This document shows, piece by piece, positions 33,509 through 46,370 of a stretch of 64,000 bases of DNA. Each line of letters opens with the position of its first letter. Within the stretch, counting starts at the first letter, position 1. Origin of the DNA: Lysobacteraceae bacterium. Its GTDB lineage: Bacteria; Pseudomonadota; Gammaproteobacteria; Xanthomonadales; Xanthomonadaceae. The position numbers and the translations under genes were made by a program. The stretch spans positions 102,210 to 166,209 of the forward strand of contig QBLY01000004.1 in the NCBI GenBank assembly GCA_003241895.1. The letters run 5' to 3'. A model generated the notes under the pieces. It made no database searches. It was given only the letters and a program-made list of their open reading frames with translations, and was not told the origin of the DNA.

Positions 33509-34217
<709 letters not shown>

Positions 34218-34255
34218 TGCCCCCAGCAGCGCGAAGAACGGCATAAAGAACCGCA

Positions 34256-34345
34256 TAAAGAACGGGGTCAGGTTCACTTATCGGGGAAGCGCTCCGGCGG
34301 TTTGCCGTGACCGGTCCCGATAAGTGAACCTGACCCCGTTCTTTA
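34256..34345. repeat. Perfect 30-bp inverted repeat (REP/MITE-like), preceded by degenerate 12-bp tandem units at 34233-34268
   Basis: TAAAGAACGGGGTCAGGTTCACTTATCGGG (34256-34285) and its exact reverse complement (34316-34345), 30-nt spacer; the right arm contains the TAA stop of the convergent OYE gene. Confidence 0.92.
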
Positions 34346-35461
34346 CGCGGTGCCGCCGCTCTTCACCAGCAGCTTGGCGAACTGCCGCGGCTGCGAGCGC
34401 AGGTACTGCGGCGGCGCGCTGACCGACGCGCCCAGGTGCGCGGCCGCGTGCCAGGGCCAGCGCGGGTTGTAGAGCATGCCGCGCGCCAGCGCGACCATAT
34501 CCGCGTCGCCGGTGGCGACGATGGCCTCGGCGTGGTCGAAGTCGGTGATCATGCCCACTGCCACCACGGGGATGCCGACCGCCTGCTTCACCGCGCGCGC
34601 CAGCGGCACCTGGTAGCCCGGACCGACCGGGATGGCCTGCGCGGGATGCAGGCCGCCGCTGGAGACGTTGATGGCCGCGCAGCCGCGCGCCTCGAGCGCG
34701 TTCGAGAACGCCACCGTCTGTTCGATGTCCCAGCCGCCCGGCACCCAGTCGGTGCCCGACAGGCGCACGCTGACCGGGCGCTCGGCCGGGAAGGCGGCGC
34801 GCACGGCGTCGAACACTTCCAGCGGGAAGCGCATGCGGTTCTCGAGCGAGCCGCCGTACTCATCGTCGCGGTGGTTGGACAGCGGCGACAGGAATTCGTG
34901 CAGCAGGTAGCCGTGCGCGGCGTGGACCTGGATGGCGTCGATGCCCAGCCTCGCCGAGCGCTGCGCGGCGTTCGCGAAGGCGTCGCGCACCGCGTCCATG
35001 CCTTCGCGCGTCAGTGCGGTGGGCGCGTGGTCGGCATCGTTGAACGGCAGCGCCGAGGGCGCGACGGTTTGCCAGCCGTGGGCATGGTCCGGCGCAAATT
35101 GCTTGCCGCCCTGCCACGGCAGGTCGGTGGAGGCCTTGCGGCCGGCGTGCGCCAGCTGGATGGCGATGGGCATGGCCGACCAGCGACGGATGCCGTTGAG
35201 CACCGTAGCCATCGCCGCTTCCGTGGCGTCATCCCACAGGCCGACGTCGCCGTAGGAAATGCGGCCCTCGGGCAGCACGGCCGTGGCCTCGATGGTGAGC
35301 AGCGCCGCGCCCGACTGCGACAGCTGCCCCAGGTGGATCAGGTGCCAGTCGGTCATGCCTCCGTCCACGGCCGAGTACTGGCACATGGGCGCGATGACGA
35401 TGCGGTTGGCGAGCAGCAGGGAGCCGACGCTGATCGGCTCGAAAAGTTGGGGCGTGCTCAT
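34343..35461 (-). CDS. NADH:flavin oxidoreductase / old yellow enzyme (YqjM/NamA-like)
   Basis: [48 protein letters not shown]; ATGA-coupled to the LLM gene. Confidence 0.93.
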
Positions 35462-36450
35462 GAGGTCCAGGCTTCCATGGTCAGTTCGAACGAGCGCACG
35501 CGCTGGGCGTGGTCGAAGATGTTGGCGGTCAGCAGGAGTTCGTCGGGGCGATGCCGTTCGACGAAGGCCTGCATCGCCGCGCGCACCGTGGCCGGCGAGC
35601 CCACGGCGCGGCAGGCCAGCGCGCTGTCGATCATGTGCTTCTCGGCGGGCATGCAGTAGTCGTTGATGGCGGCGGCGCTTTCCAGCGGGGGCGGCACCAG
35701 GCCGGGCCGGCCGCGGCGCAGGTTCACGAAGGCCTGCTGCTGGGTGGTGAACAGGCGCGCGGCTTCGTCGTCGGTGTCGGCCGTGACCACGTTCAGCGCC
35801 AGCATCACGTGCGGCTGCGCCAGCCTTGCGGACGGTTTGAACTCGCGGTGGTAAACCGCCAGCGCCTGGTCCAGCGCATCGGGCGCGAAGTGCGAGGCGA
35901 ACGCATAGGGCAGGCCCAGCGCCGCGGCCAGCCGCGCGCCGAACAGGCTCGAACCCAGGATCCAGGCTTCGATGTCCACGCCCGCGCCAGGCACCGCCTG
36001 CACGGCCTGGCCCGGCTGCGCGGGTTCGAAGTAGCGCAGCAGCTCGACCACGTCGGACGGGAATTCCTCGGCGTTGGCGTAGTAGCGCCGCAGCGCCTGC
36101 GCCGCGGCCTGGTCGGTGCCGGGCGCGCGGCCCAGGCCCAGGTCGATGCGGCCCGGGTACAGGCAGCCCAGCGTGCCGAACGCCTCGGCCGCCTGCAGCG
36201 GCGAATGGTTGGGCAGCATGATGCCGCCGGCGCCGACGCGGATGGTCTGGGTGCCGCCCGCGACATGCCCGACCAGAACCGCGGTGGCCGCACTGGCGAT
36301 GCCGGGCATGTTGTGGTGTTCGGCCAACCAGTAGCGCCGATAGCCCGCTCGTTCGCCGGCGCGCGCAAGGTCGAGCGCATTGGCGAAGGTCTGCGCCGGC
36401 GTGCTGCCCACGGTGACGGGGGCGAGGTCGAGGATGGAGAGCGGAGTCAT
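35458..36450 (-). CDS. LLM-class (luciferase-like) flavin-dependent monooxygenase, YhbW-like
   Basis: [49 protein letters not shown]. Confidence 0.92.
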
Positions 36451-36741
36451 GGGCGCGCCACGGAGAGGTTCCCCTTGAGATGGGGTTCAGGACGGGCCTG
36501 TACAAGACGCCCGGAGCGCATGGATAGCCACAGTCCTTGCCAACCGATGCTTCTGACGCGACGCGCGTTTCGATCGTGCTTGATGAAACACAAGGCGCGA
36601 GGTCCATCCAAGGTCAGGCGGGTGAAAATCGTTGGTGCGGACGCGCGAATCCGCAGCTTCGCACAGCCGCGAAACGCGCCCTTGATTTCCATAATCGGCG
36701 CGTGCGATTGTCGGCCAGGAACGGACTGGAGAGACGTCATA

Positions 36742-38490
36742 ATGAAGACGGCGGGTTGGCGCAGGTATGCGCCGCACGCGGCGGGCTCGATCGTGCTGGC
36801 GTTCCTTGTCGCATGCACCGGAGCGCCCCGGCATTCTGATGCACCCAGCCACGTCGGCGCCGCGAAGGGCGAGGCCATGGTGGCAGCGGCCGATCCGCTG
36901 GCCGTGGACGCCGGACTGGAAATGCTGCGCGCGGGCGGCAGCGCCATTGATGCGGCGATCGCGGTCGAGCTGACGCTGGGATTGGTGGAGCCGGAATCGT
37001 CGGGGCTGGGGGGCGGCGGTTTCCTGATCCACTTCACTGCGAACACCGAGGCGATGGACGCCTACGATGGCCGCGAGTGGGCGCCTGCGGGCGCTGGCGC
37101 GGACCTGTTCATGCAGGATGGAACGGCGCTGCCGTTTGAGCTGGCGCAGGCCAGCGGCAAATCCATCGGCACGCCTGCGCTGATTCCGATGTTGAAGCTG
37201 GCGCACCAGCAGCACGGAAAGCTGCCGTGGGCCAGGCTGTTCGAGCCGGCGATCAGGCTGGCGGAAAATGGCTTCGTGGTCGGGCCGCGCCTGAGCCGAA
37301 GCCTTGCCGGCAACAAGGCCATCTTCGAGGCCGACCAACAGGCGCGGGCGATCTATCTCGACGCTTCGGGCACGCCTTGGCCGCAGGGGCACCTGCTGAA
37401 GAACCCCGAATACGCCCGCACGCTGCGCGCCATTGCATCCGACGGGCCGCGCGCGCTCACACAAGGCGCCATTGCGGACAGCATCGTGGCTGCAGCCCAG
37501 CGCCAGCCGCGCGCGGGAACACTGACGTTGGCGGACCTGCAGGCCTATCAGCCGCGGCGGCTTGATCCGCTCTGCGCGCCGTACCGGGTCTATCGCGTCT
37601 GCACGATGCCTTCGCCCAGTTCGGCCAACGCGATGCTGTCGATCCTGGGTCTTTACGAACGTGCGCGACCCCAACCGGAGGGTCCGCGCAATGTGCAGGA
37701 CTGGGCGGCGTATGTTTGGGCGAGCCGTCTTTCCTATGTCGACCGCGATCACTACATGGCGGATGACCGCTTCGTGCCGGCGCCGACCCGAGAGCTGATC
37801 GCCCCGGCCTATCTCGACAGCCGCGCGAAGCTGATCGACCTGGCACAGGGCTCCGCCACCGTGCCCGTTGGCGCGCCTGCGGGAGAGGCCTTGCGCAATC
37901 GCTGGGGCAGCGAGGCGATGCAGGAACATGGCACCACGCATCTTTCCGTCGTGGACCACGCCGGCAATGCCGTGTCGCTGACGGCGACCATTGAATCCGA
38001 GTATGGCTCGCATCGCATGGCGGGCGGCTTCTGGCTCAACAACCAGTTGACGGATTTCTCGCTTGAGCCGGTGATCGATGGAAAGCCGGTGGCCAATGCG
38101 GTCGCGCCGCGCAAGGCACCGCGTTCGTCCATGTCGCCAGCGATCATCACCGACAGGGACGGCAGGCTGGTGATGGTGGTCGGCTCGATGGGCGGCAGCA
38201 CGATCATCGCTTCGGTCTCGCGCACGATCATCGGAGTGCTGGACTGGAAGCAGACGCCGCAGGAAGCGGTCGGCACGGCGGCTGTCTTCGCGCGCACGCC
38301 CGACATTTCGTTCGAAACGTCACGCCTGCCGGAGGCAACGGCCGATGCGCTGCGCGCACTGGGCTGGCGCATGGTGCCCGAGGACCTTCACAGCGGCACG
38401 CATGTGATCCAGGTGACGCCGCAAGGGCTGGTCGGCGGCGCCGATCCGCGCGAAGAGGGCAAGGCCGTGGCGCTGCCGGCGGCACGTTAG
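36742..38490 (+). CDS. Gamma-glutamyltransferase family protein, probable lipoprotein
   Basis: Lipobox-like LVAC, EPESSGLGGG, DGRE, autocleavage Thr in GTTHLSVVD, LNNQLTDFS, PRSSMSP. Confidence 0.92.
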   Translation: MKTAGWRRYAPHAAGSIVLAFLVACTGAPRHSDAPSHVGAAKGEAMVAAADPLAVDAGLEMLRAGGSAIDAAIAVELTLGLVEPESSGLGGGGFLIHFTANTEAMDAYDGREWAPAGAGADLFMQDGTALPFELAQASGKSIGTPALIPMLKLAHQQHGKLPWARLFEPAIRLAENGFVVGPRLSRSLAGNKAIFEADQQARAIYLDASGTPWPQGHLLKNPEYARTLRAIASDGPRALTQGAIADSIVAAAQRQPRAGTLTLADLQAYQPRRLDPLCAPYRVYRVCTMPSPSSANAMLSILGLYERARPQPEGPRNVQDWAAYVWASRLSYVDRDHYMADDRFVPAPTRELIAPAYLDSRAKLIDLAQGSATVPVGAPAGEALRNRWGSEAMQEHGTTHLSVVDHAGNAVSLTATIESEYGSHRMAGGFWLNNQLTDFSLEPVIDGKPVANAVAPRKAPRSSMSPAIITDRDGRLVMVVGSMGGSTIIASVSRTIIGVLDWKQTPQEAVGTAAVFARTPDISFETSRLPEATADALRALGWRMVPEDLHSGTHVIQVTPQGLVGGADPREEGKAVALPAAR

Positions 38491-38527
38491 GGTTCGGAGC
38501 CAGCAGTCGGACAACGCCCGCACGCGC

Positions 38528-38947
38528 CTACCCCCGAAACGTCTGCAGGTGCACGCTGGTTTCGCTGGCGCTGACGCCTTCGATGCCGCGGATGCGCTCA
38601 AGCGTGGCCGACAGCTCGGCCAGGCTGGCCACCCGAAGTTCCGCCAGCAGGTCCCAGCGGCCATTGGTGTCGTACAGCGCGGCGATGCCGGGCTCGCCCA
38701 GCAGCGCACGGATGACATGGTGCTGGTTGCCCTCCACCGCGATGGCGGTCCAGGCGCGGATTTCATCGGGCGTGGCGTCGGGGCGCAGGCGCAGGGTGTA
38801 GCCGGCGATCACGCCGTCGCGCTGCAGCCGGGCCATGCGGTTGGTGACGGTGCCGCGCGACACCCCCAAGGCCTTGGCCAGGTCGGCCACGGCGGCGCGG
38901 GCGTCGTGGCGGAGTTTGGCGATCAGGCGGTGGTCCAGGTCGTCCAT
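38528..38947 (-). CDS. Lrp/AsnC family transcriptional regulator
   Basis: MDDLDHRLIAKLRHDAR, HTH region, GRWDLLAEL; divergent from the ornithine cyclodeaminase gene. Confidence 0.93.
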   Translation of the reverse strand: MDDLDHRLIAKLRHDARAAVADLAKALGVSRGTVTNRMARLQRDGVIAGYTLRLRPDATPDEIRAWTAIAVEGNQHHVIRALLGEPGIAALYDTNGRWDLLAELRVASLAELSATLERIRGIEGVSASETSVHLQTFRG

Positions 38948-39079
38948 TTGATCATTCCGGCAGCCGAGTCTGACTATTTAGCAGCTATTTGCTTATTAAG
39001 TGACATCTTTGCCGTTTCGCACTGCCGCCTGTCCCGGGAAAATAGGGTTTACCGAAACCCCATCTTCCGGAGACCCACC

Positions 39080-40126
39080 ATGGCCATGACCCAGCTGACC
39101 ACTCAAGACCTGACCCGCATCGTCGCCGCCCACGGCCTGCCGACCCTGCTTGGCCGCCTGGTGGACTACCTGGAGGCCGACTTCCGCCGCTGGCCGGACT
39201 TCGACAAGAGCGCGCGCACCGCCGCCCATTCCGACGTGGGCGTGATCGAGCTGATGCCGATCTCCGACGCCAGGGACTTCAGCTTCAAGTACGTCAACGG
39301 CCACCCGGGCAATACCCGCCTGGGCCTGAGCACGGTGGTTGCCTTCGGCGTGCTGGCCGACATGGAAACCGGCATGCCCAGCCTGATCAGCGAACTCACC
39401 CTGACCACCGCCCTGCGCACCGCCGCCACCTCGGTGATGGCGGCCAAGCTGCTGGCGCGCAAGGACGCCAAGACCATGGCCCTGATCGGCAACGGCGCCC
39501 AGAGCGAATTCCAGGCGCTGGCCTTCCACCACCTGCTGGGCATCACCGAGGTGCGCGTGTACGACGTCGACCCGGCCGCCACCGACAAGCTGGTGCGCAA
39601 CCTGGCCGCGGCCGCGCCCGCCCTGCGCGTGGTGCGCAGCGCCGGCGTCGCCCAGGCCGTGCGCGGCGCCGACATCGTCACCACCGTCACCGCCGACAAG
39701 GCCAACGCCGACATCCTCACGCCCGAGATGATCGAGCCGGGCATGCACATCAACGGCGTCGGCGGCGACTGCCCCGGCAAGACCGAACTGGCCACCGGCG
39801 TGGTGGACATGGCGTCGGTGTTCGTGGAGTTCGAGCCGCAGTCGCGCATCGAGGGCGAGCTGCAGCAGATGCCCGCCGGTTTCCCGGTGACCGAACTGTG
39901 GCGCGTGCTGACCGTGCAGGCCGCCGGCCGCCGCAACGCGGCCGAAGTCACGCTGTTCGATTCGGTGGGCTTCGCGTTGGAGGACTATTCGGCGCTGCGC
40001 CTGGTGCGCGACTGCGCCAAGGAGCTGGGCCTGGGCCATGAGTCGGGGCTGGTCCCCAACCTGCGTGATCCGAAGGATTTGTTTGGTGAGTTGGCGGCGG
40101 GGCGCGGGATCCAGAAAGCCGCCTGA
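39080..40126 (+). CDS. ocd: Ornithine cyclodeaminase
   Basis: GVIELMP, FKYVNGHPGN, LTTALRTAATS, IGNGAQSEFQ, GGDCPGKTEL, FDSVGFALED. Confidence 0.92.
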   Translation: MAMTQLTTQDLTRIVAAHGLPTLLGRLVDYLEADFRRWPDFDKSARTAAHSDVGVIELMPISDARDFSFKYVNGHPGNTRLGLSTVVAFGVLADMETGMPSLISELTLTTALRTAATSVMAAKLLARKDAKTMALIGNGAQSEFQALAFHHLLGITEVRVYDVDPAATDKLVRNLAAAAPALRVVRSAGVAQAVRGADIVTTVTADKANADILTPEMIEPGMHINGVGGDCPGKTELATGVVDMASVFVEFEPQSRIEGELQQMPAGFPVTELWRVLTVQAAGRRNAAEVTLFDSVGFALEDYSALRLVRDCAKELGLGHESGLVPNLRDPKDLFGELAAGRGIQKAA

Positions 40127-40227
40127 AGAGGCTGCCCCAAGGGGCGGGTCGAATGGCCCGCCTGGCTGTGTGCGAGTTCCGAGGATATTGCCCTACCGTG
40201 CCCGTTTAGGTTGCTCAGCCCGCTGGT

Positions 40228-40265
40228 GTTGACCGGCTCGAATCGGCCAGGAGCGGCCGTTCAAC
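40228..40265 (-). repeat. Bulged hairpin repeat, copy overlapping attC R'
   Basis: Minus strand GTTGAACGGCCGCTCCTGGCCGATTCGAGCCGGTCAAC; 9/10 terminal stem; core GCCGCTCCTGGCCG shared with 43523-43538 and 36712-36726. Confidence 0.65.
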
Positions 40266-40315
40266 GCCTTGGGCTAAGCCCCGCCGTAGGCGTCACCTTG
40301 AATCAGTTGTTAGGC
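40259..40315 (-). mobile_element. Integron attC site (57 bp)
   Basis: Minus strand GCCTAAC-AACTG-ATTCAAGG-TGACGCCTACGGCGGG-GCTTAGC-CCAAGGC-GTTGAAC; R'' fits RYYYAAC, R' fits GTTRRRY, L boxes and central hairpin present; the TAA stop of the upstream gene lies inside R''. Confidence 0.8.
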
Positions 40316-40900
40316 ACGAGCGGGTTCGGCAACACGCCTGAACTCCCGCATTGCCATAACCACGAGCGCGATGCCTGACACCCCAGTTCCAACCAGCGCC
40401 CAGCTCGGCGATTCGCCTCGCACCAGGGCGAGAACTGCCCCGCCGCCAAGAAGCGTAGCCCACGGCATGCCGACAACGGCCAGACCGGCGCCAATGTACT
40501 GTCGCTGACGGAAGAGGTGAACCAGCGCTTGGGCTATCAGAACCACAGCGAGGCTAGCCACCGAGATGTTTATTACGGCCAAGCCCTGCGAAGCGGGGAG
40601 GCCAGCCGGGCGCCCGGATTCACCAGTAACTGCCAACGTGATGATGGCGATGCCAAGAAGCAGCATGCCGGGCCATGTCCAGACGGGGTGGGCGGTGCTG
40701 CAAGGCTGCTCCTCCTGAAGGTCGATTAGCTTGGCCCCGTAGGTGGCCGCGAGGCATACGGCTGTGCCCAGAGATGCAACTCCTTCTGCCTCAACACGCT
40801 GAACAGTGCGGAGGCTCAAGCCGGATGCGACGGCGAGTTGATCTTGAGACCACCCTCGCTCGGTGCGCAGGCGACGTACGGTAGAGGACGAGATCTTCAT
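40310..40900 (-). CDS. XRE-family HTH regulator with C-terminal multi-TM domain (cassette-borne)
   Basis: VRRLRTERGWSQDQLAVASGLSLRTVQRVE HTH, followed by about four hydrophobic helices; GGAG precedes ATG 40900 (alternative ATG 40912). Confidence 0.85.
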   Translation of the reverse strand: MKISSSTVRRLRTERGWSQDQLAVASGLSLRTVQRVEAEGVASLGTAVCLAATYGAKLIDLQEEQPCSTAHPVWTWPGMLLLGIAIITLAVTGESGRPAGLPASQGLAVINISVASLAVVLIAQALVHLFRQRQYIGAGLAVVGMPWATLLGGGAVLALVRGESPSWALVGTGVSGIALVVMAMREFRRVAEPARA

Positions 40901-41233
40901 TTCATGCTCCATGGCAATGCTCCCGAGGCTGTTGGACCCTTTGGAGCGTGCGACCTAGGCCAATCTATCGTTACGACAAACTCCTGCCATCACCCGCCAA
41001 TTGGCCGCCAATCAGTTCTACCGGAACCAGACTAACGAACATACGGGCATCAACGTCCGGCTTTACATCTGAACAGTGCGACGCCTTTTTCCCCGCAACG
41101 CGTTGATTTTTAGCGAGCTTAGGCCGGCCTTGTCCGGCAATCAATCCCATAGAACCCCAGACGGCCTCAGCCTGTCGAGATCAGCCGTCTTACGGCCAAT
41201 TCCAATGGGAAACCATGGCGATCAACTGGATCG

Positions 41234-41267
41234 CGACCGGCTGCTTTGGGTCGAAAGGGCCTGGTCG
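41234..41267 (+). repeat. Bulged hairpin repeat, copy downstream of the PAP2 gene
   Basis: CGACCGGCTGCTTTGGGTCGAAAGGGCCTGGTCG; first 20 nt match 43441-43460 at 19/20. Confidence 0.75.
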
Positions 41268-41360
41268 GCTGTCAGCCCATGGCGATGGTTCAACGTCGAG
41301 ATGAGGGGGCTCCGAAATTGTTCGGAGGGTGCCACAAGCGTAGTTCTTGGGACCGCTGAT

Positions 41361-42356
41361 TTACCGGCGCGCGGGGTCGAGCGCAGACGCCGGAGGATAC
41401 AGTCCCAGAGCCTGCGCAAGCCACACCGCGCCCAGGATGGATGCCGGGAAGCCCAAAGCTGCAAACAAGTAGCTGACGCCATGGCCGTCAGGCCAGCCTC
41501 CGAGCTCGTGCAGCTGCCCAAGCAGCCACCCCGTGCCCGTGACGAACGCCACCGCGGCCACGACGCGCAGTGCGCGCCGGGCAGGCGGGGCGGCATCCAG
41601 CGGCCATCCACGCCATTCGAACCAGCCGATACAGGCCAACGCGCCTGCGACGCTCCCGGCCTGATAAGGGTCAAGGGGAGCCACCATCAAGGACAGCCCG
41701 CAGAGCGCCATCGCCACCATGGCGGCGAAGAACCAAGCCCGACCTGCGCGGACCCCTCCGGCCTGGGTCATGCGCATCAGCAAGACTGCCGCGCCGGCCG
41801 CGGCGGCGCCTGCAGCCAGTCCTCCCAGCACATCGGCAAGGAAATGCCGCCCCAGGTACAGGCGCGACAGGGCGATCAACAGCGGCCAGGCCAACAGGAG
41901 CCAAGCCCAGCGCCGTCGCTGCAGCGCGAACAGGCCTATCAGTGCGAAGGCCCAGACACTCGCACCCGCCACATGACCGCTGAGGAAACCGTAATCGTGA
42001 TCACCGGTGCCGCGTGCGGCGGCAATGCCGGCCTCCGACGGCAGTCCCCAGAACGTCTTCGCGGCGCCGTCGGCGACCAGATAATTACCTTCACGACCCT
42101 TGTCCAGAACCCTGGCGTCCACCTCGCTGGGACGCGGCAGCGCGAAGCCCTGCTTGACCGTGTCTGTGACCATGCCCGCCAGCACCAGCGCCAGCATGAC
42201 GCCCAGCATGGGCCGCAACCGGAACCCGAAGGCCAGAACCAGCAGCACCATGGAATAGACCCACGAGCGGCCGGCTTCCGACACCACCTGCATCCAAGCC
42301 AAGACCCACGGCGAATCGAACTGCTGCAGCCAAAGGTTGGTGTCCACTTCAAACAT
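41361..42356 (-). CDS. PAP2-family membrane phosphatase
   Basis: K...RP (KQGFALPRP), GFLSGH, SRLYLGRHFLADVLGG motifs; multiple TM helices; GGAG RBS. Confidence 0.85.
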   Translation of the reverse strand: MFEVDTNLWLQQFDSPWVLAWMQVVSEAGRSWVYSMVLLVLAFGFRLRPMLGVMLALVLAGMVTDTVKQGFALPRPSEVDARVLDKGREGNYLVADGAAKTFWGLPSEAGIAAARGTGDHDYGFLSGHVAGASVWAFALIGLFALQRRRWAWLLLAWPLLIALSRLYLGRHFLADVLGGLAAGAAAAGAAVLLMRMTQAGGVRAGRAWFFAAMVAMALCGLSLMVAPLDPYQAGSVAGALACIGWFEWRGWPLDAAPPARRALRVVAAVAFVTGTGWLLGQLHELGGWPDGHGVSYLFAALGFPASILGAVWLAQALGLYPPASALDPARR

Positions 42357-42419
42357 GGGGCACTCCGCGACGTTCAAGGGCGCACAGTGTCCCCGTCGGG
42401 TGCCACTTTGCCACGCGCA

Positions 42420-42448
42420 CAGTGACAGGGCGATGGCCCGCAGTGACA
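42420..42448 (+). promoter_or_regulatory. Putative LytTR operator: CAGTGACA direct repeat with 21-bp period
   Basis: CAGTGACA at 42420-42427 and 42441-42448 in the PAP2/LytTR divergent intergenic region. Confidence 0.55.
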
Positions 42449-42492
42449 AGCGGCGACCTCGGCGGGACGAGAGGCCGGGCTAGAATCCCGCG

Positions 42493-43374
42493 ATGGGATT
42501 GAGCGACGCAACGACACCGCCCGCGCAAGCGGATTTCTGGAGCCGCCACCTGCCATGGCGTCGCCCCATTGAACTTGCGGGCTGGCTGTTGGCCTTCGGT
42601 GGAGGCGCACTGGCCAACGTCATGCTTCGCATGATCGATGCCCGGCGTGACGGTGGCCAAGCCGAAACCTGGAAGTACGTGACTTGGGAGGGCAGTTCCG
42701 CCTTGGCCTCGCTGGCACTACTTCCGCTGTTGTTGTGGCTGTGCAACCGATGGCCGCTGCACCTGGAAAACTGGCTCCGGAGATTGCCGCTCTACGTGGC
42801 CGCAAGCCTGGCTTGGTCTGTGCTGCATGTGGTCGCCATGGTAGGAGTCCGCATGCTGGTGTACCCCACCCAGGGCGACACCTACGAATTCGACTGGATC
42901 ACGGGACTTCCGTACGAGTACCTCAAGGATGCCAGGACCTTCGGACTGGTCGTGATGTTGACCCACGGCTATCACTGGCTCTGGCGGCGTTTGCAGGGAG
43001 AGATCCATCTGCTGGATGCGCCGGACCACGGCATCCCGCCGCAGGCGCGCGGCGAGCCGGAACGCTTCCTGGTGCGCAAACTGGGCCGCGAGTTCCTGGT
43101 CAGCACCCACGATATCGAGTGGCTGCAGGCTTCCGGCAACTACGTCAACCTCCGCGTCGCCGGACGCGACTACCCGCTCCGTATCACGATGGCGGCGATC
43201 GAAGCTCGGCTGCAGGTCGCTGGTTTCGTCCGTGTCCACCGCAGCTACATCGTGAACCTGGACTGCCTGGCATCCATCGAACCGACCGACAGCGGCGATG
43301 CCTTGTTGCGTATGAAATCCGGCGACTTCATACCATGCAGCCGTCGCTACCGAGACCGGCTTCGCGGCAGTTAG
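42493..43374 (+). CDS. Membrane-anchored LytTR-family DNA-binding regulator
   Basis: About four N-terminal TM helices; C-terminal IEWLQASGNYVNL...FVRVHRSYIVN...IPCSRRY LytTR domain; no receiver domain. Confidence 0.9.
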   Translation: MGLSDATTPPAQADFWSRHLPWRRPIELAGWLLAFGGGALANVMLRMIDARRDGGQAETWKYVTWEGSSALASLALLPLLLWLCNRWPLHLENWLRRLPLYVAASLAWSVLHVVAMVGVRMLVYPTQGDTYEFDWITGLPYEYLKDARTFGLVVMLTHGYHWLWRRLQGEIHLLDAPDHGIPPQARGEPERFLVRKLGREFLVSTHDIEWLQASGNYVNLRVAGRDYPLRITMAAIEARLQVAGFVRVHRSYIVNLDCLASIEPTDSGDALLRMKSGDFIPCSRRYRDRLRGS

Positions 43375-43440
43375 AGAATGAAATCCGTTCGAAAGTGCCT
43401 GCCACGAACCGTTCCGAGTCCGAGCTGGGGTGACCGCCAT

Positions 43441-43540
43441 CGACCGGCCGCTTTGGGTCGGCAAGCGCCTGTCGCATCTATTTCCTCGGGGTCGAGAAGC
43501 GCCTGTCGCAATTGGCTCCTCGCGGCCAGGAGCGGACGGA
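43441..43540. repeat. Cluster of three hairpin-repeat units (two direct with 34-bp period, third inverted)
   Basis: AAGCGCCTGTCGCA at 43463-43476 and 43497-43510, each preceded by GGGTCG; inverted unit core CGGCCAGGAGCGGAC at 43523-43537. Confidence 0.75.
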
Positions 43541-43610
43541 CACCGGATTGGAAGCCTGACTGCGATTCTTCTCCAGCACGGAAACCCTGCATGTGTGATC
43601 CAGCGGCCCC

Positions 43611-43643
43611 GGCGGGTCGGTTTCGAAAGAAAACCGACCCGCC
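43611..43643. repeat. 13-bp perfect stem hairpin (terminator-like or REP-like)
   Basis: GGCGGGTCGGTTT-CGAAAGA-AAACCGACCCGCC; no clear U-tract; a related GGCGGGTC hairpin lies at 40143-40162. Confidence 0.7.
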
Positions 43644-43682
43644 GCCCCCCGGACTTGAGGAGATGGCTTGGGCGCGGTGGGG

Positions 43683-44141
43683 CTACTCCTTCCCCGTCAT
43701 CGGCACGGGGTCATAATCCGGGGTGTCGAGCGCATTCAGCGGTGCCGTCACCTTGTAAGGCACGCCGATCTGGCGGTTAACGGCAAAGAAAGTCAGCGTT
43801 TGATCCAGGATCGACGGGACGGTGATCAGGTCAAGTTCCGGAAGGCCGAAACCGCGCAGCCCATATGCGGCGTCGGGTGAAACGATCCCCGGTGCCTCGG
43901 CCGCGTGCCGCGCGCGATACCATTCGGAAAATCGGGCGGGATCCTCAATCACGGTATAGGTTTGCTGCTGCGCAAGGTGATTGACGGCCTGGGCACACAG
44001 CAACGCCTGGTCGGGCGCGCAAATCCAAGAGGCAAGCCCCATCAATTCGGGTGCTGATTGCACTGGCGTCCCGTCCACATAGATCGCGGGGGCCCCATCA
44101 TCGGCGTAGCCCAACGAGATTTCAGGAAGATCGATTGTCAT
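43683..44141 (-). CDS. Hypothetical protein, 152 aa
   Basis: RBS AAGGAG, protein-like composition (MTIDLPEISLGYADDGAPAIYVDG...), atypical codon usage; no family recognised. Confidence 0.7.
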   Translation of the reverse strand: MTIDLPEISLGYADDGAPAIYVDGTPVQSAPELMGLASWICAPDQALLCAQAVNHLAQQQTYTVIEDPARFSEWYRARHAAEAPGIVSPDAAYGLRGFGLPELDLITVPSILDQTLTFFAVNRQIGVPYKVTAPLNALDTPDYDPVPMTGKE

Positions 44142-44362
44142 CGTTCGCAACTCCTTGTCGTGTTCTGGAAGGCGGCTTTCGTTGGGTGATATCCATGCCC
44201 TTGTCGACCCAAGTCTTGCGCGCCATTGGGGATAAATAACCCGGTGGATCCGTCCGCCACCACATGACGGCTGCACAGTGTTCCGCCCGGCCTCATCGCC
44301 GCCTGTCGGCGTTTGTCAGCGCCAGCAGCTGAGTCGTTTCAAGTTTGCGATGTCCGCGGTCT

Positions 44363-45287
44363 TCAAAGCGGCTGCGTGCCCTCGCCCAGGATTTCGAGAT
44401 ACGCCTGGTAGACGTAAACGCGATGGCGCCGCTGGCCGGTCAGCTCGTTCACGATCCCCATTTCCGCCAGGGTGGATATCGCAGAACGAATGGTGGGAGC
44501 GCTCATCGCCACATGCGGACGAACCTGGGCCACGCCCGACACGACCCGTCGCGCCAACTGGTCGAAGACCAGACCGACGCTGCCGGCGCGCGCGCCCAGT
44601 CCGCCGATGCGGGCACGGTCGGCGGCCAACAGCGCGAGGAGGCGCTGGGCAGTGTCCACCGCTTGCGTGGCCGTTTCGGCCACACCGTCCAGGAAAAAGC
44701 CCAGCCAGCCCTCCCAGTCGCCTTGGGTGCGCACGGCGTTGAGGCGCTCGTAGTACTCCGCGCGGTGTTGCTTGAAGTGCAGGCTCAGGTAAAGGCCGGG
44801 TTCGCGCAGCACGCCCTCCACGCAAAGGATCAGCGCGATCAGCAGGCGGCCCAGGCGACCATTGCCGTCCTTGAAGGGATGGATGGTTTCGAACTGCACG
44901 TGGGCCAATGCCGCCTTGATCAAGGGGGGCGCTTGATCGGATGGCAGGTGCAGATAGTTTTCCAAAGCCCCCAGCAGCGCCGCCAGCGCATCCGGCGGCG
45001 GCGGCACGAAGTGCGCGGTCGCTGGAGTCCTGCCGCCCACCCACACTTGTCCAGAACGGACTTCACCCGGCTGGCTGGAAGCGCCGCGGCCGCCCTGCAG
45101 CAGCAGGGCGTGCATCTCGCGAATCAGGCGCAGGGACAGCGGGAAATCGTCTTGGCGCAGCCGCCTGAAGCCATGGTTGAGTGCCGCAAGGTAGTTCGAG
45201 ACTTCCTCCACGTCGTCCACGGGCACGCCGGGCGCCTCGTTCAGTTCGTACAGCAGCAGATCGGCCAGGGACGACTGCGTTCCTTCA
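44363..45287 (-). pseudogene. Fic-family protein, 5'-truncated
   Basis: Intact Fic motif HPFKDGNGRLGR and C-terminal HTH-like tail, but homology starts abruptly at EGTQSSLADLL. The usual preceding ...EA..SS.IEG segment and N-domain are absent, and the called GTG start lies inside a repeat. Confidence 0.75.
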
Positions 45288-45306
45288 AAAGGATTGACTG
45301 GGCGGG

Positions 45307-45345
45307 CCCTCACCCCGGCCCTCTCCCGCTTTGCGGGAGAGGGAG
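45307..45345. repeat. CCCTCACCCC..CCCTCTCCC-type REP-like palindrome
   Basis: CCCTCACCCCGGCCCTCTCCCGC-TTT-GCGGGAGAGGG with an 11-bp perfect stem, immediately downstream of the oleA stop. Confidence 0.8.
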
Positions 45346-45353
45346 CAAAGCAG

Positions 45354-46370
45354 CTACCAGACGACTTCGGCCATCGAGCAGTTCAGCCCCGAGCCGATGC
45401 CCAGCAGGGCCACGCGGTCGCCCTTCTTGAGGCGGCCCATTTCCCGCAGCTTGCTCAGCACGATCGGCACCGAGGCCGGGCCGATGTTGCCGTGCTCGGC
45501 GAAGATGGTGAGCACTTTCTTGGGGTCGATGCCGAAGGCCTTGATCATGGCCTGGGTATGGACCTGGCTGACCTGGTGCACCACGAACTCATCGAGCTCG
45601 TCCACCACCCAGCCCAGCGCCTGGCGGGCCGAGGCGAAGGTGAGCGTGGCCAGCTTCAGGCCTTCGATCAGCAGCATGCGGGTGTCGGTGACCATGCGAT
45701 CGAGGTTGCCGCGGCACAGCGTGTTCCACTGCGTGGCGGCCTTGGTGACGCCGCCGCGGTAGCGCGGGGCGTCGGGCGTGAGCTCGCTGCGGCTGAGCAC
45801 CATCGCGGCCGCGCCGCAGCCCAGGGTAAGGGTGGCGAGCTCGTTGCGGAACTGTTCCTCGGTGACGTTCGGGCCAAGCATGCGCTCAAGGGTTTTCTTG
45901 TACGCGAGGTTGGCGGTTTCGCCGTCGACGATCAGCGCGTAGTCGATTTCGCCGCGCTCGATCATGCGGCTGGCGATGTCCATGCCGTTGAGGAAGGCCA
46001 GGCAGGCATTGGCCACGTCGAAGTTCTGGCAGTTCTCGCCCATGCCCAGGTTGCCGGCGACGATGGACGCCGTGGACGGCTCCAGGTAGTCGCGGCTCAC
46101 CGAGGTGTTCACCAGCAGGCCGATCTTGCTGCGGTCAACGCCGGCGTCGGCCAGCGCCTTCTCGGCGGCCAGGGTGGCGGCGTCGCTGGCCTGGGTCTCG
46201 TCGTCCCAGAGGCGGCGGGCCATGATGCCGGCGATGTCCTGCAGCACATCGGTCTTGATGCCCAGCCGATCCATGGTGGGCTTGAGCTGGGCGTTGATGT
46301 CCGCCGAGCTCAGGCGGTGCGGCGCATCGATATGCGCAAGGCCGGCGATGGAAACGTGCTGGAACAACAT
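45354..46370 (-). CDS. oleA: Acyl-CoA:acyl-CoA alkyltransferase OleA
   Basis: MLFQHVSIAGLAHIDAP N-terminus, YLEPSTAS (Glu), NACLAF (Cys), ATLTLGCGA, HQVS (His), GNIGPASVP, GIGSGLNC; 338 aa. Confidence 0.93.
   Translation of the reverse strand: MLFQHVSIAGLAHIDAPHRLSSADINAQLKPTMDRLGIKTDVLQDIAGIMARRLWDDETQASDAATLAAEKALADAGVDRSKIGLLVNTSVSRDYLEPSTASIVAGNLGMGENCQNFDVANACLAFLNGMDIASRMIERGEIDYALIVDGETANLAYKKTLERMLGPNVTEEQFRNELATLTLGCGAAAMVLSRSELTPDAPRYRGGVTKAATQWNTLCRGNLDRMVTDTRMLLIEGLKLATLTFASARQALGWVVDELDEFVVHQVSQVHTQAMIKAFGIDPKKVLTIFAEHGNIGPASVPIVLSKLREMGRLKKGDRVALLGIGSGLNCSMAEVVW

What the first reader, a model, noticed from the sequence alone, without database searches (positions are those of the whole stretch)
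40259..41036. Solitary integron gene cassette (XRE-membrane regulator plus 57-bp attC) with no integrase
Seen: the gene's TAA lies inside GCCTAAC (R''), followed by L boxes, a central hairpin and GTTGAAC (R'), 57 bp in total. Upstream of the gene there is G/TTAGTC (41036-41030), which matches the complement of R'' at 6/7, as expected for the left end of an integrated cassette; this gives a 771-bp cassette (41035 to 40265). There is no intI, attI or second attC in the window. Known: stop-in-R'' is a cassette hallmark, and IntI can insert cassettes at secondary sites. Inference: a cassette stranded at a secondary chromosomal site, or the last relic of an array. The R-L spacer on the R' side looks 1 nt longer than typical, so the site may be decaying.
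Basis: partly seen in the sequence, partly recalled or inferred. Interest (0 to 1): 0.7.

Follow-up and report, generated by a model that had tools for sequence, protein, structure and literature searches.

The report
Stranded integron cassette with decayed attC
A single gene for a membrane-anchored XRE-type regulator is a former integron gene cassette, now alone in the chromosome of an Arenimonas-like bacterium with a worn-down attC recombination site and no integrase nearby; this kind of element (a "SALIN") is already known, so it is a clear example, not a new one.

Summary
On the minus strand the 200-aa XRE/HTH membrane protein gene (40912-40310) ends with TAA inside GCCTAAC. A 57-bp attC-like site (40315-40259) follows, ending in GTTGAAC. 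G/TTAGTC lies at 41036-41030.

Homologs of the gene are cassette-borne. One sits in a complete chromosomal integron of Lysobacter sp. HDW10, and two sit in metagenomic attC arrays. Covariance models built from 10 or 19 attCs of those arrays rank the 57-mer as the best hit in the 64-kb window. The scores are modest (16.1 and 13.4 bits, E about 0.06 and 0.5). A sequence-only model shows that most of the signal comes from the R''-L'' half.

The canonical hairpin is degraded: 14 of 21 model pairs remain and the fold z-score is -1.6, against -4.4 to -7.4 for most intact sites.

Collinearity with the closest relative genome ends exactly at the outer base of R'. No IntI-like integrase or second attC is in the window. 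The left end is fixed only to 41036-41053, and no empty site was found, so the route of arrival stays open (secondary-site insertion or array relic).

Verdict: a cassette-derived single attC without integrase (SALIN) that has been domesticated. It is a new member of a known kind and of modest interest.

The parts
40310..40912 (-). Cassette ORF. It encodes a 200-aa protein with an N-terminal XRE-type HTH (residues ~11-61) and 3-4 hydrophobic helices (residues ~77-189). The stop TAA is at 40312-40310. The database gene call starts at the second ATG (196 aa).
   Evidence: ORF list. Pfam HTH_3 6.8e-07 and HTH_31. Hydropathy. 104 homologs, the named ones from Xanthomonadales genera. Family alignment with 32 invariant residues.
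40259..40315 (-). Relic attC, 57 bp. R'' GCCTAAC 40315-40309; spacer 40308-40304; L'' ATTCAAG 40303-40297; shortened centre 40296-40279; L' CTTAGC 40278-40273; spacer (1 nt longer than the consensus) 40272-40266; R' GTTGAAC 40265-40259.
   Evidence: Top covariance-model hit in the window. The sequence-only model matches 40315-40287. Homology with the attC of the L085 cassette runs to 40289. The fold is not canonical, z -1.6.
40913..41035 (-). Cassette 5' leader, conserved across the family. It holds three direct repeats (TGGCGG 41010-41005, TGGCGG 40999-40994, TGGCAG 40989-40984; 11- and 10-nt spacing), then TGTCGTAACGATAG, GGTCGCACGCT, and GGAGC 7 nt before the ATG. It is probably the cassette's own promoter/operator (inferred).
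   Evidence: Alignment of 8 homolog loci; the repeats and boxes are invariant in arrays and in solitary copies. The consensus sigma-70 scan found no promoter, so promoter function is inferred only.
41030..41036 (-). Proposed left junction G/TTAGTC. TTAGTC matches TTAGGC, the complement of the first six bases (GCCTAA) of R'' GCCTAAC, at 5 of 6 positions. This is what is expected at the start of an integrated cassette.
   Evidence: It lies at the position, within 5 nt, of the R' core GTTAGGC of the upstream attC in L085 and L001. Caveat: homology with L094 reaches 41050 and an assembly-graph branch lies at 41052/41053.
40178..40267 (.). Flanking short repeat ('Repeat A') that abuts or overlaps R'. 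It is shared with the closest relative L089/L090, and diverged extra copies occur in the source metagenome. It supplies the TTGAAC half of R'.
   Evidence: BLAST and alignment with L089. Depth is 4x and other contigs end at 40259 and 40267. A 74% copy lies at 43514-43551.

Best explanation
This is one integron gene cassette of about 771-790 bp from the cassette pool of Xanthomonadales/Lysobacterales chromosomal integrons. It now sits alone, outside any integron, at the edge of a 5.2-kb hypervariable stretch (40131-45354) between the ornithine cyclodeaminase gene and a FabH-like gene of an Arenimonas-like genome.

The cassette carries three things:
- its own conserved leader, with three TGGCGG repeats that are probably an autoregulatory operator/promoter;
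- an intact gene for a membrane-anchored XRE-family regulator;
- a relic attC.

Shown here: homologs of the gene sit in cassette arrays; the 57-mer has attC-like sequence, mostly in its R''-L'' half; the hairpin is degraded; the right junction coincides with the G|TT crossover point; no IntI-like gene is in the window.

Inferred: the right junction was made by an integron integrase recombining the attC with a genomic GTT site (attC x attG). That left the cassette's own TTAGGC-like half-site at the left end and a foreign TTGAAC at the right. With no integrase nearby, the attC then drifted while the gene was kept, which amounts to domestication. In its present state the site is probably a poor substrate for recombination, or no substrate at all.
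For: (1) Homologs are cassette-borne.
- P0037 is roughly the 13th ORF after a 347-aa IntI-like tyrosine recombinase in Lysobacter sp. HDW10. More than 25 same-strand small ORFs and attCs follow that integrase.
- L001 has five 68-bp attCs, and the homolog lies between two of them.
- L085 has five attCs, with one on each side of the homolog.
- P0005 and P0022 have C-terminal tails (GPNNS...), and P0075 a similar C-terminal tail, that look like read-through of an attC.

(2) The site itself.
- It is the best hit in the window for models R1, R3 and R2.
- Intact attCs score 37-87 bits. The equally decayed attC behind the Lysobacter homolog scores 24.6 bits, and its stop TAG also lies in R''.

(3) The right junction.
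- The closest relative (OCD 97% aa, about 92% nt) is collinear up to window 40259 and unrelated beyond.
- The more distant relatives L091/L092 go straight from OCD to the FabH-like gene.

(4) The half-site swap expected of IntI recombination.
- The left end TTAGTC is close to the complement of R''.
- The outer bases of R' (TTGAAC) do not pair with R'' and belong to a flanking repeat that other contigs also carry.

(5) The cassette leader is conserved from just after GTTAGG in the array copies through to the ATG in all loci.

(6) Array-borne and attC-less copies interleave in the family tree. L084 keeps GGTGCAGGGGCCCCGGAC where L085 has GGTGTTAGGCCCCGGAC. This points to repeated attC loss and not to repeated gain.

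(7) The literature describes exactly this class: single attC sites lacking an integrase (SALINs), insertion by attC x attG at 5'-GWT-3', and loss of attC on domestication (bioRxiv 10.1101/2022.09.11.507474).
Against: - Model scores are modest and, taken alone, not significant over 128 kb (E 0.06 and 0.5). About 14 of the 16 bits come from sequence in the 5' half.
- The models were trained on only three or four arrays of one attC type. IntegronFinder's own model was not available.
- The site does not fold into the canonical shape.
- The seven closest or other solitary homolog contexts have no detectable attC.
- No empty site was found. The DNA beyond the junction in L089 matches nothing to the left of the cassette.
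- The left end is ambiguous: 14-26 nt upstream of G/TTAGTC look homologous to L094, and the unitig graph branches at 41052/41053.
- The region to the left (41053-41206) is a multi-context node with unequal depths, so physical linkage to PAP2 is not certain.
- Only 64 kb of the genome was visible, so an integron elsewhere in it cannot be excluded.
Confidence: 0.8

Rival explanations
1. Last relic of a cassette array. An ancestral chromosomal integron or CALIN lay at this variable locus, and deletions removed the integrase and the other cassettes, leaving one cassette.
For: The window and L094 share 14-26 nt upstream of the cassette start. That could be the tail of a preceding, very diverged attC. 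The locus is a flux region whose gene content differs between every relative examined. Most genes in the variable stretch are on the same strand as the cassette.
Against: There is no second attC or attC remnant anywhere in 40100-45500, and no IntI remnant in 64 kb. The 61-mer upstream (41108-41048) fails as an attC. A deletion end point would have to fall exactly on the G|TT of R'. R' GTTGAAC differs from the R' sequences read directly in the L081, L085 and L001 arrays (GTTAGGC, GTTAGAC, GTTAGGT, GTTAGAT, GTAAGGT). The DNA after R' is chromosomal and is shared with L089.
Confidence: 0.2
2. The cassette-derived gene arrived as part of a larger fragment by homologous or illegitimate recombination at the flanking short repeats (Repeat A and the 41053-41206 node). 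The integrase did not act at this locus.
For: Both flanks are multi-context repeats in the source metagenome, with graph branch points at 40259/40267 and 41052/41053. A 74% copy of Repeat A lies at 43514-43551. Homology with L094 extends past the nominal cassette start.
Against: The right break coincides with the outer end of R', within a few bases of the G|TT crossover point. TTAGTC sits where the cassette start is in the arrays. No donor context with the same flanks was found.
Confidence: 0.15
3. An ordinary chromosomal XRE-family gene whose 3' flank resembles an attC by chance. The 57-mer would be just intergenic sequence or a weak terminator.
For: The fold is no better than shuffled sequence (z +0.45 and +1.0 with flanks, -1.6 alone). 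Model E-values are borderline. Many homologs have no attC.
Against: Three independent homolog loci are in attC arrays. 17 of the first 19 nt match the attC of the L085 cassette, by my comparison of the sequences. The stop lies in R'' as in L081. The site is the top hit for three models. No terminator-like site was found.
Confidence: 0.04

Closest known systems
[quoted passage not shown]
   Same: One CDS with one attC-like site. No other attC was found in the 64-kb window and no IntI-like gene. The junction lies at a GTT, which fits the 5'-GWT-3' attG consensus.
   Different: The attC here is degraded and may fall below IntegronFinder's thresholds (not tested). The cassette carries a long conserved leader of its own. 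The left junction is not clean.
Cassettes of sedentary chromosomal integrons of Xanthomonadales/Lysobacterales, for example the Lysobacter sp. HDW10 array CP049864 (locus L081)
   Same: The same gene family (55-56% aa) with the same leader. The attC is of the same 60-bp type (GCCTAACAATTC-GTTCAAG-...-CTTAAC-TCAGGC-GTTAGGC). The stop codon lies inside R''.
   Different: In the window there is no integrase, no attI and no neighbouring cassettes. The central stem is shortened by 4 nt and the outer half of R' is foreign.
attC of aadA-type resistance cassettes in class 1 integrons (compared from memory only)
   Same: The same module order, and near-identical R''-spacer-L'' and L'-spacer sequence as I recall it.
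   Different: The cargo here is a regulator, not a resistance gene.
RodZ-like and other membrane-anchored XRE-family HTH proteins
   Same: An N-terminal XRE HTH followed by membrane helices. There is a weak hit to the HTH_25 Pfam family (E 0.00095, below its cut-off), which I recall (from memory, not checked here) as the RodZ-type HTH.
   Different: There are 3-4 helices, no periplasmic domain, and no family-level match. The function has not been tested.

Membership tests
Integron gene cassette | An attC at the 3' end of the ORF with R''(RYYYAAC)-L''...L'-R'(GTTRRRY) in the right order and spacing. | tested here: met
   GCCTAAC / ATTCAAG / CTTAGC / GTTGAAC, 57 bp. It aligns end to end with models R1 and R3 (model positions 1-60).
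Integron gene cassette | The attC scores significantly with an attC covariance model. | tested here: inconclusive
   It is the best hit in the window, but with 16.1 bits (E~0.06) for R1 and 13.4 bits (E~0.5) for R3. E is 0.005 within the 5.4-kb region. The models were home-made from 10 or 19 sites. IntegronFinder's own model was not available.
Integron gene cassette | The bottom strand folds into the imperfect hairpin with paired R and L boxes, extrahelical bases and a variable terminal stem. | tested here: not met
   In the canonical register 14 of 21 pairs are standard (11 Watson-Crick plus 3 G.T) and 2 pairs are deleted, against 85% in 19 intact sites. The minimum-energy fold is non-canonical, z -1.6, against -4.4 to -7.4 for three of four intact comparators (the fourth gave -2.5). 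The extrahelical C in L'' and the bulged position are still present. This speaks against a working site, not against cassette origin.
Integron gene cassette | The same gene occurs as a cassette in integron arrays elsewhere. | tested here: met
   L081 (with IntI), L001 and L085.
Integron gene cassette | Cassette boundaries lie at G|TT on both sides, and the first 6 nt are complementary to R''. | tested here: inconclusive
   Right: the synteny break with L089 is at 40259/40260, within 6 nt of G|TT. Left: TTAGTC matches TTAGGC at 5 of 6 positions and lies at the homologous position, but homology with L094 and a graph branch reach 41050-41053.
Integron gene cassette | IntI can excise or recombine it. 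| not testable with these tools
   This needs a recombination assay. No skipping joints were seen in the contigs of public runs, but contigs cannot show rare events.
SALIN / CALIN | No integron integrase and no attI nearby; a single attC. | tested here: met
   tblastn with the L081 IntI against the window gave best E 1.0. No further model hits were found. Only 64 kb was visible. attI sites have no general model and were not searched for directly.
Complete integron | intI plus attI plus Pc plus at least one cassette. | tested here: not met
   No intI in the window.

The most novel reading that the evidence does not exclude
The family may be a natural series of one regulatory cassette caught at every stage. 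Some copies are in working arrays, some are stranded with a half-decayed attC (this window, and the Lysobacter copy inside its array), and some are fully domesticated with no attC. The window's junction, with a GTTGAAC at the tip of a short multi-copy repeat, might mark such repeats as preferred genomic (attG) landing sites. The cassette would then be a self-regulated, membrane-signal-sensing transcription factor that integrons distribute and that hosts repeatedly adopt.
Probability: 0.15. Interest if true: 0.5.

Novelty: new member of a known kind. Interest (0 to 1): 0.3.

Why it matters
Single stranded cassettes are how integron cargo can become ordinary chromosomal genes. Default IntegronFinder settings hide them, so well-documented examples with comparative support are useful.

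This one offers three things:
- a dated-looking intermediate: the gene is intact, the 5' half of the attC is preserved and the stem has eroded;
- a gene family with array-borne, stranded and attC-less members for studying attC decay and domestication;
- a cassette with its own conserved regulatory leader.

It does not change what is known about integrons.

Tried and rejected
- **Second attC upstream.** The 61-mer 41108-41048 has a 7-bp inverted repeat (ATCAACG/CGTTGAT), attC-like length, and G|TT at the graph branch point. I rejected it: no model hit, fold z about 0 and no L box.
- **Other cassettes in the variable region.** PAP2, LytTR, the hypothetical gene and Fic have no attC near them.
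- **Empty site.** L089/L090 break at the same point but carry unrelated DNA. L091/L092 lack the whole 5.2 kb. The loose ends of metagenome contigs match neither flank.
- **Excision joints.** None were seen in public runs.
- **Genome-contig scan with the full-length alignment.** It picked generic HTH patterns and returned mostly unrelated XRE genes; only L001 was useful.
- **Metagenome-contig scan with the membrane domain.** It gave 4 loci.
- **Plasmid search with the protein.** Only HTH-domain hits below 60% identity, so there is no plasmid-borne copy.
- **Other searches.** Rfam and tRNA scans of the window found nothing. The promoter and terminator consensus scan found nothing. PADLOC had no hit for the XRE protein. 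The P0075 context was not on record.

Full report
**What is in the sequence.** On the minus strand an ORF runs from 40912 to 40310 (200 aa).
- Its last codons read GCC TAA, and the next base is C, so the stop lies inside GCCTAAC (40315-40309).
- The following bases, GCCTAAC-AACTG-ATTCAAG-GTGACGCCTACGGCGGGG-CTTAGC-CCAAGGC-GTTGAAC, make up 57 bp and end at 40259.
- G/TTAGTC is at 41036/41035-41030.

**The protein.** It has an XRE-type HTH at residues ~11-61 (Pfam HTH_3 6.8e-07, HTH_31 3.4e-06). Three clear hydrophobic stretches and one glycine-rich one follow. NCBIfam gives only sub-threshold HTH matches and PADLOC gives none.

**Organism and neighbourhood.**
- The adjacent ornithine cyclodeaminase is 88% identical to those of named Arenimonas species. 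The closest metagenomic relative is 97% identical.
- Public runs that hold the stretch are microbial-mat metagenomes.
- Relatives at 91% OCD identity (L091, L092) go directly from OCD to a FabH-like gene. Window 40131-45354 is therefore a 5.2-kb variable stretch.
- That stretch holds the XRE gene, a PAP2 phosphatase (41361-42449, -), a LytTR protein (42493-43374, +), a hypothetical gene (43683-44276, -) and a Fic protein (44363-45313, -).
- Arenimonas metalli has four other genes there, including a Fic gene.
- GC content falls to 0.57-0.61 around the XRE gene, against 0.65-0.73 in the flanks.

**Are homologs cassette-borne? Yes.** The family has 104 members, and the named ones are from Xanthomonadales genera: Rhodanobacter, Lysobacter, Oleiagrimonas and Pseudoxanthomonas.
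- In Lysobacter sp. HDW10 (L081) the homolog is roughly the 13th ORF after a 347-aa tyrosine recombinase with the Phage_int_SAM_4 and Phage_integrase domains. More than 25 small same-strand ORFs follow that recombinase, separated by attCs such as GCCTAACAATTCGTCCAAGCCGACGCCGCTTCGCGGCCCGGCTTAACTCAGGTGTAAGGT.
- L001 (a Methylococcaceae MAG) has five 68-bp attCs, with the homolog between two of them. L085 has five attCs, one directly upstream of the homolog and one at its 3' end.
- Three homologs have C-terminal tails (GPNNSFKP..KPLRGSA and similar) that look like read-through of an attC in another frame.
- Seven other contexts are solitary with no detectable attC: Oleiagrimonas soli, L084, L086, L087/88, L094/95, L096 and L097/98.
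- In a neighbour-joining tree the array-borne and attC-less copies are interleaved.
- L084 keeps GGTGCAGGGGCCCCGGAC where L085 has the upstream R' GGTGTTAGGCCCCGGAC. Repeated loss of attC from a cassette ancestor is therefore the simpler reading.

**Is the 57-mer an attC?** I built covariance model R1 from 10 attCs of L081, L085 and L001, none of them the attC belonging to a homolog, with the canonical R/L/centre pairing.
- Intact attCs in the arrays score 37-87 bits. The decayed attC behind the Lysobacter homolog scores 24.6 bits.
- In the window the best hit on either strand is 40315..40259 at 16.1 bits, E~0.06. The next best hit scores 12.4 bits. Within the 5.4-kb variable stretch it is the only hit above 5.3 bits, E 0.005.
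- In 1.13 Mb of unrelated loci only four hits reached 15 bits or more. The three that reached 18 bits or more lie in or beside apparent arrays (L042, L011, L079).
- A broader model, R3, built from 19 sites including long ones, still ranks the site first, but at 13.4 bits and E~0.5.
- A sequence-only model gives 14.3 bits (E 0.0023) for positions 1-29 alone. Nearly all the signal is therefore conserved sequence in R''-spacer-L''. The 3' half and the pairing add about 2 bits.
- The local alignment with L085 runs through the stop codon to 40289, inside the attC. By my comparison, 17 of the first 19 nt match the attC of the L085 cassette.

**State of the hairpin.** I counted pairs in the canonical register from the alignment.

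| Element | Standard pairs |
|---|---|
| R box | 5 of 7 (one is a G.T) |
| L box | 5 of 6 (one is a G.T) |
| Centre | 4 of 8 (two pairs deleted) |
| Total | 14 of 21 (11 are Watson-Crick) |

- In 19 intact sites 85% of cells pair.
- Bottom strands of three of the four intact attCs I folded take the canonical shape at -14.5 to -19.6 kcal/mol, z -4.4 to -7.4. The fourth, an intact 79-bit site (L081 3632-3691), reached only -13.0 kcal/mol and z -2.5, which narrows the gap.
- The window site gives -9.0 kcal/mol, z -1.6, and a different shape. The Lysobacter homolog's own attC is similar, z -1.1. With flanks included the z-scores are positive.
- The site is best described as a relic. Whether it can still recombine cannot be decided here.

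**Boundaries, right end.**
- The closest relative (L089/L090, about 92% nt identity) is collinear with the window from 38541 to 40259. It is unrelated beyond that point.
- In the alignment, homology starts at GGCCGCTCC immediately after GTTGAAC. TTGAAC may be weakly matched by CTCAAC.
- Contigs of the source run also carry diverged copies of 40218-40259 or 40218-40267 in other contexts. The TTGAAC half of R' therefore belongs to a flanking short repeat and not to the cassette.
- That is what an integrase crossover at G|TT would leave behind.

**Boundaries, left end.**
- The leader is conserved in all eight loci, from the position just after GTTAGG in L085 and L001 down to the ATG.
- The window's GTTAGTC lies within 5 nt of that position. 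TTAGTC matches the complement of R'' at 5 of 6 bases.
- However, homology with L094, the locus of the closest homolog, runs to 41050, with 10 of the 14 extra bases matching. The unitig carrying OCD and the cassette ends in a 30-nt overlap at 41053-41082, with a branch at 41052/41053.
- The left end is therefore fixed only to 41036-41053.

**Integrase and other sites.** tblastn with the Lysobacter IntI finds nothing in the window (best E 1.0). No other attC is detected. A 61-mer upstream with a 7-bp inverted repeat (41108-41048) was examined and rejected.

**Assembly caveat.**
- In the source run the depth is 38 for 34023-41082 and 99 for 41053-41206.
- It is 57 for 41177-43518, 100 for 43489-43537 and 33.5 beyond.
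- The PAP2-LytTR segment and the two short nodes therefore also occur in other contexts. The join to the left of the cassette is plausible but not proven.
- A second metagenome (X5) carries the same attC/flank junction (40244-40304). A third (X6) carries the 5' half of the gene at about 99% identity.

**Mechanism.**
- Shown: cassette ancestry, a relic attC, a junction at the outer end of R' (within a few bases of G|TT), and no integrase or array in 64 kb.
- Inferred, about 0.5 given cassette origin: IntI joined the attC to a genomic GTT, the attC x attG route with its 5'-GWT-3' consensus described by Loot et al.. With no integrase acting on it, the hairpin then eroded while the gene and its leader were kept.
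- The rivals are an array relic and import on a larger fragment by recombination at the flanking repeats. Neither is excluded.
- The leader's three TGGCGG repeats, at 11- and 10-nt spacing and invariant across the family, are the obvious candidate operator for the HTH domain. This is inference only, and no consensus sigma-70 promoter was found.

**Comparison with known elements and novelty.** Single attC sites lacking an integrase (SALINs) are an established class, with 3400 in 2469 RefSeq genomes. IntegronFinder 2 does not report single sites by default, in order to limit false positives. This locus is a new member of that kind. It has good comparative support, and its gene family spans array-borne, stranded and attC-less states. 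Interest is modest.

Noticed in passing
window 40984-41010 (and the same position in L001, L081, L082, L084-L087): Three direct TGGCGG repeats at 11- and 10-nt spacing, followed by conserved boxes (TGTCGTA.CGATA, GGTCGCACGCT). They are invariant in the leader of every family member, whether in arrays or solitary. They may be an operator for the cassette's own HTH protein.
   Followed up: partly
window 40178-40267 and 43489-43551: A short repeat ('Repeat A', core CCGCTCCTGGCCG) abuts the attC. It has a 74% copy at 43514-43551 and about 4x depth in the source metagenome, where other contigs end at 40259 and 40267. It may be a REP-like element that marks recombination-prone spots.
   Followed up: partly
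window 41053-41257, 41234-41253 and 43441-43522: A 154-bp assembly node (41053-41206) has about 2.6x depth and branches on both sides. A palindromic 20-mer, CGACCGGCYGCTTTGGGTCG, occurs at 41234-41253 and 43441-43460. A 34-nt tandem pair lies at 43455-43522. The PAP2-LytTR unitig (41177-43518) has 1.5x the depth of its flanks, so it also exists in another context.
   Followed up: partly
window 44363-45313 (-): The Fic-domain protein matches the PADLOC SoFic defence model strongly (322.6 bits, 9.1e-97). Arenimonas metalli has a Fic gene at the same relative position, next to the FabH-like gene.
   Followed up: partly
window 34256-34354: An element of about 100 bp that matches itself in both orientations. 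Copies occur at a different position in L089, L090 and L093 (77-79% identity), and there are 39-nt length variants in the runs. It looks like a MITE or REP-like element.
   Followed up: no
window 36454-38541: About 2.1 kb that encodes the C-terminal region of a long ORF with gamma-glutamyltranspeptidase-like sequence. It is absent between the luciferase-like monooxygenase and AsnC-type regulator genes of all relatives examined (L089-L093). This is a second strain-specific insertion.
   Followed up: no
L081 1517-20600 (Lysobacter sp. HDW10, CP049864): A complete sedentary chromosomal integron: IntI next to putA, then more than 25 cassettes. Several of its attCs are decayed or truncated, including the one belonging to the XRE-TM homolog.
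   Followed up: partly
L042 14935-19749 (-) and L011 62-4558 (+): Series of attC-model hits at regular spacing indicate cassette arrays in a Candidatus Azotimanducaceae MAG and in Neptunicella marina. These loci were fetched only because they contain an XRE HTH gene.
   Followed up: no
L097/L098 1340-2973: In these contigs the XRE-TM homolog is followed by a HipB-like HTH gene and a HipA toxin kinase gene on the same strand.
   Followed up: no
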